Assembly: GCF_009914755.1 (NCBI RefSeq)
Contig: NC_060925.1
Length of the DNA: 64,000 nt
Source: the human T2T-CHM13v2.0 reference genome, Homo sapiens
Direction: 5' to 3' (one strand)
The notes under the pieces are model-generated. The model saw only the letters and a program-made list of their open reading frames with translations. It did no database searches and had not been told where the DNA came from. Shown here piece after piece: positions 41,491 through 42,928 of this stretch. Made by a program: the position numbers and the translations under genes. Positions within the stretch are counted from its first letter, which is position 1. Every line of letters starts with the position of its first letter.

Positions 41491-42028
41491 TGCTTATGCA
41501 TTGCAGCTCAAATTACCCTATTTATCTGCAGGAGCCTATTTTTCCCTTTCTTATATACAGTGCCCTCATGCTCTCTGCCAGCCACCCTCCAATCCAAACC
41601 TACTTAAAAAAAGAAAAGCTGACATCAACAACATGGTGGAATAGGCAGCTCTTGACTCTCTTTCCACCCATGGATGCATCAAATAAACATTTATTCATGG
41701 ATCAATTCCCTCTGAGGGGAAGTCAGAGACCAGTTGAGAGACTCCTACCCTCTGGAGAAGTCAGAAACATTCACATTAAACAGGCAGAAAATGCTGAGGC
41801 ACATTCAGGCATGGACCTCCCTCTAGGCACCATGCCATAAGATTGGGAAAGAAATCCCCAACACACAACATCTCCCTGTGGAGAGAAGGAGTTGGACCTC
41901 ACATAGACTGCCCTAACTCTAAAGTTCCCATGATTTGGCCCTTAATTCACCAACTCTGGGAATGCAGGGAAGGGATTACTCACAAGTGAGTTTTTCTAGT
42001 GGTGTTTTATTAAGTACAAAAGTTCCTG

Positions 42029-42327
42029 GGCCAGGTGTGGTGGCTCACACCTATAATCCCATCACTTTGGGAGGCCGAGGTGGGTGAATCACCTGAAGTC
42101 AGGAGTTCGAGACCAGCCTGGCCAACATGGCAAAACCCAGTCTCTATTAAAAATAATTTTTAAAAAATTACCCAGGCGTGGGCACCTGTAATCCCAGCTA
42201 CTTGGGAGACTGAAGCAGGAGAATTGCTTGAACCCGGGAGGCAGAGGTTGCAGTGAGCCGAGATCGTGCCACTGCACTCCAGCCTGGGCAACAGAGTGAG
42301 ACTCTGTCTCAAAAAAAAAAAAAAAAA
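42029..42327 (+). mobile_element. AluS
   Basis: Dimeric Alu; TSD aaaagttcct. Confidence 0.95.
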
Positions 42328-42928
42328 GTTCCTAATTTTGATGAAGTCCGATTTATTATTTTTATCATTTATTCATTGAACTTTTGATACCATATCTAAG
42401 AAATATTTGTTACACAGGATTACATAAATGTGCCCCACATTTTTTCTTTATACAAGCTGCAAGTACTTCCAGGGGCTTTTTCTTCCAGGAACAGTGCAGA
42501 GAGAGAGCTATAAAAACTTCAACCCCCTATTTCTCCCTGGAAAGGACATAGTGTTCCAGTGGCCACTTGGTGACCTGGGTTCTAACTAACTTGTGTAGGC
42601 GAGTAGGAGGAGCAGACAAGTATTAACTTGCTGGCAAGCTGAGAAGATGGGCACTTCTTGAGCCTTCTCTGACTCCTCCCAGTGACGATTCCAGGTCTCT
42701 TAATCCTTGGAAGAAGTTTTTTCACAGATAGAGCACCCTAACTTTTATAGCTTCTATCAAGGGACAGCATCCTAAACCTCCTAGCCCTGGAAGCAGAGGA
42801 CAATTAGAAATGTGACTCTATTTAGACGACAGAAAAAAACTGACCATTTTATGTGGATGCGTAAGCACTTTCAGAGGCTTCATTCCCCAGGAGTAGTGCA
42901 GAAAAGGGGCTTTAAAAATGTACCTTCC

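What the first reader, a model, noticed from the sequence alone, without database searches (positions are those of the whole stretch)
41995..42450. Inverted ~150-bp copy of neighbouring DNA (39902-40050) inserted in an L1 5'UTR, later hit by an AluS
With the Alu and one TSD copy removed, the reverse complement reads taaagaaaaaatgtggggcacatttatgtaatcctgtgtaacaaatatttcttagatatggtatc...cttaataaaacacc. This matches 39902-40050 at about 88% and includes a ~50-bp identical run. That is far too similar for two independent L1MB relics, so it is a local copy. Compared with the sister UTR monomers, it replaces about 25 bp of the 5'UTR, with short microhomologies (tctag; ttta). The nested AluS sets a minimum age.
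Basis: seen in the sequence. Interest (0 to 1): 0.7.

Follow-up and report, generated by a model that had tools for sequence, protein, structure and literature searches.

The report
Ancient locally templated DNA repair patch
A 144-base stretch of old junk DNA was copied backwards from 2 kb away into a neighbouring dead retrotransposon, likely while a DNA break was being repaired about 30-45 million years ago; this is a known kind of mutation scar, though the same element carries a second copy of similar age.

Summary
With the nested Alu removed, 41999-42450 is an inverted copy of 39902-40045: 130 of 146 columns match, with a 51-bp identical run. The neighbour is the best non-self hit in the genome searches (90%; others at most 83% over short parts). 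Copy and donor share 26 bases that depart from their L1 family; paralogues share 1-10. In 29 paralogues of the host 5'UTR the site is empty, and about 22 bp were replaced. The right-hand microhomology (TTTA) is real. Divergence per copy (4.9%) matches the nested Alu (5.1%), so the insert is much younger than its host L1. There is no TSD or poly(A). Best reading: a DNA-templated, microhomology-guided patch made during germline break repair or template switching, a known class but longer and more distant than Pol-theta or short-range switch definitions. No function is indicated.

The parts
39902..40045 (+). Donor: 144 bp inside an old L1 ORF2 relic (about 39433-40728); 24% GC, no CpG
   Evidence: paralogues 69-79%
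41630..55385 (+). Host: old near-full-length L1 relic (5'UTR, ORF1, inter-ORF spacer, partly deleted ORF2, 3' end); limits approximate; subfamily not determined
   Evidence: 68-79% to paralogues
41997..41999 (+). Left junction: G at 41999 shared exactly with donor; TAG likely shared at the time of the event (inferred)
   Evidence: family T at donor 40046 in 13 of 18, TAG in 18 of 29 host paralogues
42000..42446 (-). Insertion 1: inverted copy of the donor, interrupted by the Alu; replaces about 22 bp of host 5'UTR
42028..42323 (+). Nested Alu (AluS by recalled diagnostics) with A-tail; TSD 42018-42027 / 42324-42333
   Evidence: 12 of 235 non-CpG differences from the majority of 46 other Alus
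42447..42450 (+). Right junction: TTTA microhomology shared by donor and host
   Evidence: TTTA in 15 of 29 paralogues
42929..48961 (+). Young full-length L1 inserted later into the host 5'UTR; 15-bp TSD 42914-42928 / 48962-48976
49434..49626 (+). Donor 2: part of the host 5'UTR
51301..51494 (+). Insertion 2: direct 194-bp copy of 49434-49626 in the inter-ORF spacer; microhomology CAAA (left) and AATG (right), no net host loss
   Evidence: 178 of 194; absent at the junction in 12 of 12 paralogues; 187-bp host extra against 3 of 3 long paralogues
52325..52432 (.). Patch 3: about 100-bp AT-rich fold-back insertion ending in an inverted copy (52414-52432) of 52307-52325; undated
   Evidence: 98-103 bp extra against 3 of 3 paralogues; 16 of 19; 0 of 5000 shuffles reach 16
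53237..53267 (+). Patch 4: 5'UTR-derived filler of up to 31 bp at a ~670-bp ORF2 deletion; local origin not resolved
   Evidence: 26 of 31 to 51393, 25 of 31 to 49525, shuffles at most 23 (300); but a distant paralogue scores 27 and two score 26

Best explanation
The insert is an inverted copy of DNA 2 kb upstream, likely written in by a polymerase that switched template during repair of a germline DNA break or stalled fork, probably 30-45 million years ago. Shown: the copy, its direction (donor sits inside a continuous L1 relic, copy interrupts a collinear 5'UTR), loss of about 22 host bases, a 4-bp right microhomology, no TSD or poly(A), and an age far below the host L1's. Inferred: a free 3' end annealed to the donor through about 3 bp (TAG; perhaps up to 8-9 imperfect bases), copied about 140 nt, released, and rejoined the far side of the break through TTTA, as in MMBIR/FoSTeS or SDSA-like invasion closed by microhomology-mediated end joining. 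An Alu then entered the patch by ordinary retrotransposition. The product is probably neutral.
For: Identity 89% over 146 columns. Best non-self hit among 32 matches and among 40 scored of 244 candidates. The copy shares 26 of 36 donor departures from the family; 18 paralogues share 1-10 of 32-36. Insert absent from 29 of 29 host paralogue loci (score 28-48 against 222). Empty site 26-29 bp in 23 of 29. Changes since copying fall on both arms: 6 donor, 4 copy, 4 unresolved. Per-copy divergence 4.9% against Alu 5.1%; host against paralogues 68-79%. Inverted orientation, 2-12 bp microhomology and germline occurrence match MMB-TIs (PMC8421209). A donor about 2 kb away matches the ~2-kb resection range given for germline break repair (PMC7615360).
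Against: Size and distance exceed the published definitions: Pol-theta TINS 3-30 bp with template within 50 bp (PMC7165422); MMB-TI and short-range switches within 100 bp. The left microhomology is only 1 bp in today's sequence. The 51-bp identical run is longer than even scatter predicts (P 0.011-0.017, post hoc), so some later gene conversion is possible. Sequence alone cannot tell a DNA from an RNA template or name the polymerase. The calendar age rests on recalled primate divergence rates.
Confidence: 0.8

Rival explanations
1. RNA-templated patch: a transcript running through the donor was reverse-transcribed into a nearby break (class 2 TSIP or endonuclease-independent type).
For: Junctions of class 2 TSIPs (microdeletion, microhomology, no TSD) and sizes of experimental inserts (73-414 bp, median 191) fit; those inserts were RNA-derived in cell lines (PMC5110952). 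LINC01748 ends about 26 kb away on the minus strand (annotation given with the finding), so read-through is conceivable.
Against: In that work donors were distant, not nearby. Here two donors lie within 2 kb of their acceptors, which a diffusible RNA does not predict. No gene is annotated in the window.
Confidence: 0.09
2. Remnant of a larger inverted duplication or complex rearrangement, later trimmed by deletion.
For: The host carries other rearrangements (insertion 2, patches 3-4, a ~670-bp ORF2 deletion).
Against: Host sequence is collinear with paralogues on both sides, with only ~22 bp lost; no further inverted copy of donor flanks in the window.
Confidence: 0.06
3. An independent old L1 fragment sat here and was later homogenised with its neighbour by gene conversion between inverted repeats.
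For: The 51-bp identical run (P 0.011-0.017).
Against: Shared derived bases run along the whole insert, 39917-40045, and high identity ends at both junctions. The fragment would have to be older than the younger host 5'UTR it interrupts, or be converted end to end.
Confidence: 0.03
4. Reverse-transcriptase template switching when the host L1 itself integrated.
For: Inserts 1, 2 and 4 are all L1-derived, and donor 2 lies in the host's own RNA.
Against: Arms differ by 8-10% while the host differs from paralogues by 21-32%; insertion 2 shares 23 host-private changes with its donor. Donor 1 lies outside the host. Still open for the undated patches 3 and 4.
Confidence: 0.02

Closest known systems
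MMBIR-type templated insertions (MMB-TI; Osia et al. 2021, PMC8421209, passages read)
   Same: Inverted copy of a nearby template, short junction microhomology, return close to the start point, found as germline variants.
   Different: Their search takes templates within 100 bp; here the donor is 1,953 bp away and the event is ancient.
Pol-theta templated insertions, TINS (Carvajal-Garcia et al. 2020, PMC7165422, passages read)
   Same: Insertion with small deletion, microhomology, AT-rich template. Patch 3 (iterated fold-back synthesis) resembles this class closely.
   Different: TINS are 3-30 bp with template within about 50 bp; insertions 1 and 2 are 144 and 194 bp and 1.4-2 kb from their donors.
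Class 2 templated sequence insertion polymorphisms (Onozawa and Aplan 2016, PMC5110952, parts 1-2 of 4 read)
   Same: No TSD or poly(A); microdeletion and microhomology; similar size.
   Different: Defined by a distant donor and by polymorphism; here the donor is adjacent and polymorphism was not testable.
Non-classical, endonuclease-independent L1 insertions, NCLI (Sen et al. 2007, PMC1920257, passages read)
   Same: Internal L1 fragment without TSD or poly(A), with target deletion; that paper also lists SDSA on neighbouring DNA as a possible route.
   Different: NCLI are argued to come from mRNA of active L1s; here the source is one identified, long-dead neighbouring relic.
Short-range template switches in apes (Walker et al. 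2021, PMC7954356, passages read)
   Same: Reverse-complement fragment replacing a short ancestral stretch.
   Different: Within 100 nt, median 12 and maximum 128 nt long.

Membership tests
Local templated insertion (broad MMBIR/FoSTeS/SDSA class) | Insert copied from one identifiable nearby sequence | tested here: met
Local templated insertion (broad MMBIR/FoSTeS/SDSA class) | Donor intact; acceptor flanks collinear with little loss | tested here: met
Local templated insertion (broad MMBIR/FoSTeS/SDSA class) | Microhomology at both junctions | tested here: inconclusive
   Right TTTA met; left 1 bp today, 3 bp inferred
MMB-TI (Osia 2021) | Inverted orientation to template | tested here: met
MMB-TI (Osia 2021) | Template within 100 bp | tested here: not met
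   1,953 bp against the definition
Pol-theta TINS | 3-30 bp, template within about 50 bp | tested here: not met
   144 bp, about 2 kb
Pol-theta TINS | AT-rich templated tract | tested here: met
   24% GC against 37% for the window; not so for donor 2 (44%)
Pol-theta TINS | Dependence on POLQ | not testable with these tools
   Ancient event
Class 2 TSIP | No TSD or poly(A); microdeletion and microhomology | tested here: met
Class 2 TSIP | Donor in a distant genomic region | tested here: not met
Class 2 TSIP | Polymorphic in humans | not testable with these tools
   One genome held; 10% arm divergence makes fixation likely (inference)
TPRT insertion / class 1 TSIP | TSD of 5 bp or more and poly(A) tail | tested here: not met
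   target deletion, no tail; only the nested Alu has these
NCLI | Internal L1 fragment without TSD or poly(A), with target deletion | tested here: met
NCLI | Derived from RNA of an L1 active at the time | tested here: not met
   Carries 26 donor-private departures from the family; 52% to the window's young L1
AluS (nested element) | Subfamily diagnostic bases | not tested
   Label recalled; only divergence measured (12 of 235, third lowest of 47 Alus)

The most novel reading that the evidence does not exclude
This one L1 relic preserves a single clustered germline repair event from the anthropoid ancestor: two kilobase-range template switches (inverted 144 bp, direct 194 bp; same age within error; 2.5 kb apart before later insertions) and perhaps two smaller patches. 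It would be a fixed, datable fossil of multi-switch repair, and an example of a mid-range class (100-200 bp copied from 1.5-2 kb away) that published short-range scans exclude and repeat annotation would hide as ordinary L1 fragments.
Probability: 0.25. Interest if true: 0.5.

Novelty: new member of a known kind. Interest (0 to 1): 0.27.

Why it matters
On its own this is one more neutral repair scar. Its value is as a clean, nested and datable example: donor, empty site and a later Alu are all readable. It falls between published classes (within 100 bp, or distant donors), and because donor and copy are L1 DNA it would pass as an independent L1 fragment. If the clustering with insertion 2 is real, old repeats could be mined genome-wide to measure how often kilobase-range template switching happens in the primate germline and whether it comes in bursts.

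Tried and rejected
Independent L1 relics: rejected. Family feature of the host 5'UTR: rejected, 0 of 29 paralogue loci carry the insert. Segmental duplication: no close copy of either flank among 40 and 46 listed matches. Tension between Alu age and arm divergence, which would have required gene conversion: not found. Higher density of shared-derived bases inside the identical run was not used as evidence, because the paralogues were picked by similarity to the other half. The multiple alignment misaligns a few columns at 39902-39915 (125 of 144 identical there), so identity figures come. Hairpin folding of donor and flank gave nothing notable and had no shuffle control. The patch-3 control used too short a flank and was redone. 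Patch 4 could not be tied to the local copy. An alternative parse of the left junction (an earlier short deletion, then priming at a longer imperfect match, since some paralogues have GTGGTTTTA here) cannot be excluded. No link found to the annotated enhancers at 42650-43762, which overlap host UTR and the young L1's 5' end. Nine paper searches listed no title or abstract start about this locus; the library is incomplete, and no supplements were read, where an event list could hold it. Earlier scan findings were not available.

Full report
Observation. The inverted pair is present. The Alu at 42028-42323 has a 10-bp TSD (42018-42027 / 42324-42333). Without it, 41999-42450 aligns to the reverse complement of 39902-40045 with 130 matches, 14 substitutions and 2 gap columns in 146, and a 51-bp identical run at 39915-39965. 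The gap between donor and insert is 1,953 bp.

Local copy, not two relics. A search of the genome with 114 bp of the insert gave 32 matches: itself, the neighbour (90%, full length, E 3e-35), and 30 partial hits of 77-83% with E 3.5e-10 or worse. The reciprocal search with the donor scored 40 of 244 candidates: the insert at 90%, all others 69-79%. These searches score only their best candidates, so they are not exhaustive. In an alignment with the top 18 of those 30 paralogues, the insert is 62-69% identical to them, and it shares 26 of the donor's 36 departures from the family majority; each paralogue shares 1-10 of 32-36. Of the 14 substitutions, 6 map to the donor, 4 to the copy, 4 are unresolved.

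Direction and junctions. The donor lies inside a continuous L1 ORF2 relic (about 39433-40728). The copy interrupts the 5'UTR of another old L1. None of 29 paralogue loci of that UTR holds the insert (scores 28-48 against 222). They carry 11-35 bp (27 bp in 16, 26-29 bp in 23 of 29) where the host has the insert; removing the shared G and TTTA leaves about 22 bp lost. TTTA at 42447-42450 is shared by donor and host family (15 of 29 paralogues). The family has T at donor 40046 (13 of 18) and TAG at host 41997-41999 (18 of 29), so a 3-bp TAG overlap at the time is likely (inference). There is no TSD and no poly(A) on the insert.

Age. The arms differ at 14 of 144 sites (9.7%, 95% interval 5.4-15.8), or 4.9% per copy. 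The nested Alu differs from the majority of 46 other Alus at 12 of 235 non-CpG sites (5.1%), third lowest of 47. So the Alu came soon after the patch. The host is 68-79% identical to its paralogues, so the patch is much younger than the host's own integration. Most Alus date to about 40 million years ago (PMC5056899, passages); with recalled primate divergence rates I put the event at roughly 30-45 million years. The 51-bp run has P 0.011-0.017 under even scatter (200,000 shuffles, post hoc); a later short gene conversion is possible but not needed.

Beyond the finding. The self-comparison of the window showed a second local copy in the same host: 51301-51494 is a direct copy of 49434-49626 (178 of 194). 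Among 29 genome matches the donor is 92% and the others 69-87%, the two above 80% being under 80 bp. It shares 23 departures with its donor against 23 paralogues, has CAAA and AATG overlaps with no net loss, and is missing at the junction in 12 of 12 paralogues. Its divergence (15 of 193) does not differ from insertion 1 (Fisher P 0.56). Removing the later young L1 and Alu, the two sites were about 2.5 kb apart. Against three long paralogues the host also has a ~100-bp AT-rich fold-back insertion at 52325-52432 ending in an inverted local copy (16 of 19; 0 of 5000 shuffles), and a ~670-bp ORF2 deletion bridged by 5'UTR-like filler (26 of 31 to insertion 2; 300 shuffles reach at most 23). Against a local origin of that filler, distant paralogues match it as well (27, 26, 26 of 31). 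Neither small patch can be dated.

Is the clustering more than chance? In 59 merged regions (196 kb of non-Alu sequence, about 90 kb effective for a pair 2.1 kb apart) a scan found 9 dispersed local matches of 28 bp or more, all direct, the longest 108 bp at 83% (at the UTR monomer repeat), none both 100 bp or longer and 88% or better; the rest of the window added one 34-bp match at 82%. If one further event fell at random in about 150 kb, the chance of landing within about 2.7 kb of the first is near 4%. That is a rough, post hoc figure from short, L1-rich loci: suggestive only.

Mechanism. Shown: copy, direction, small target loss, one microhomology, no retrotransposition hallmarks, late date. 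Inferred: a free 3' end at a break or stalled fork primed on the donor, copied about 140 nt, and rejoined through TTTA. Inverted, microhomology-flanked insertions occur as human germline variants (PMC8421209, passages), and germline break repair yields template switches and variants within about 2 kb of resection (PMC7615360, passages). An RNA template cannot be excluded (PMC5110952, parts 1-2 of 4), but there donors were distant.

Comparison with known classes. It works like an MMBIR or SDSA templated insertion. It fails the size and distance limits of Pol-theta TINS (PMC7165422, passages), of MMB-TI as searched, and of short-range ape switches (PMC7954356, passages). It has the junctions of class 2 TSIPs and of NCLI (PMC1920257, passages) but not their distant or active-L1 source. 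Template insertions are a recognised minor class of human polymorphic insertions (15 candidates in 11 genomes; PMC8082928, passages and abstract start). I file it as a new member of the broad known kind.

Verdict. Real, well resolved, probably neutral. Interest 0.27; the clustered-event reading (probability 0.25) would merit about 0.5 and is testable with primate orthologues, which were not available here.

Noticed in passing
window 51301-51494 (donor 49434-49626): Second local templated copy, direct, 92%, in the same L1; similar age to the finding.
   Followed up: yes
window 52325-52432: AT-rich fold-back insertion with internal palindromes and an inverted local 19-mer; resembles iterated Pol-theta synthesis.
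   Followed up: partly
window 53237-53267: About 670 bp of ORF2 missing, bridged by a short piece of 5'UTR sequence; source copy unresolved.
   Followed up: partly
window 42929-48961: Full-length young L1 with 15-bp TSD nested in the older L1's 5'UTR; its A-tail is interrupted by a short non-A stretch near 48946-48958; the annotated enhancers overlap its 5' end.
   Followed up: no
window 18097-20185: 5'-inverted (twin-primed type) young L1, 95-97% identical to the full-length one.
   Followed up: no
window 30547-30755: Recent tandem duplication of 104 bp, 99% identical.
   Followed up: no
window 38680-38700 and 39003-39023: 21-bp target-site duplication (20 of 21) around the Alu at about 38701-39002.
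   Followed up: no
L039 and L027, at the site equivalent to insertion 1: Two of 29 paralogues appear to carry an Alu at or beside the same A-rich UTR site that was lost in the host, hinting that the site is nick-prone.
   Followed up: no
L011 29-97 and 1892-1960; L019 891-934 and 1045-1088: Short dispersed direct copies (69 bp at 86%, 1.8 kb apart; 44 bp at 98%, 110 bp apart) in background loci.
   Followed up: no
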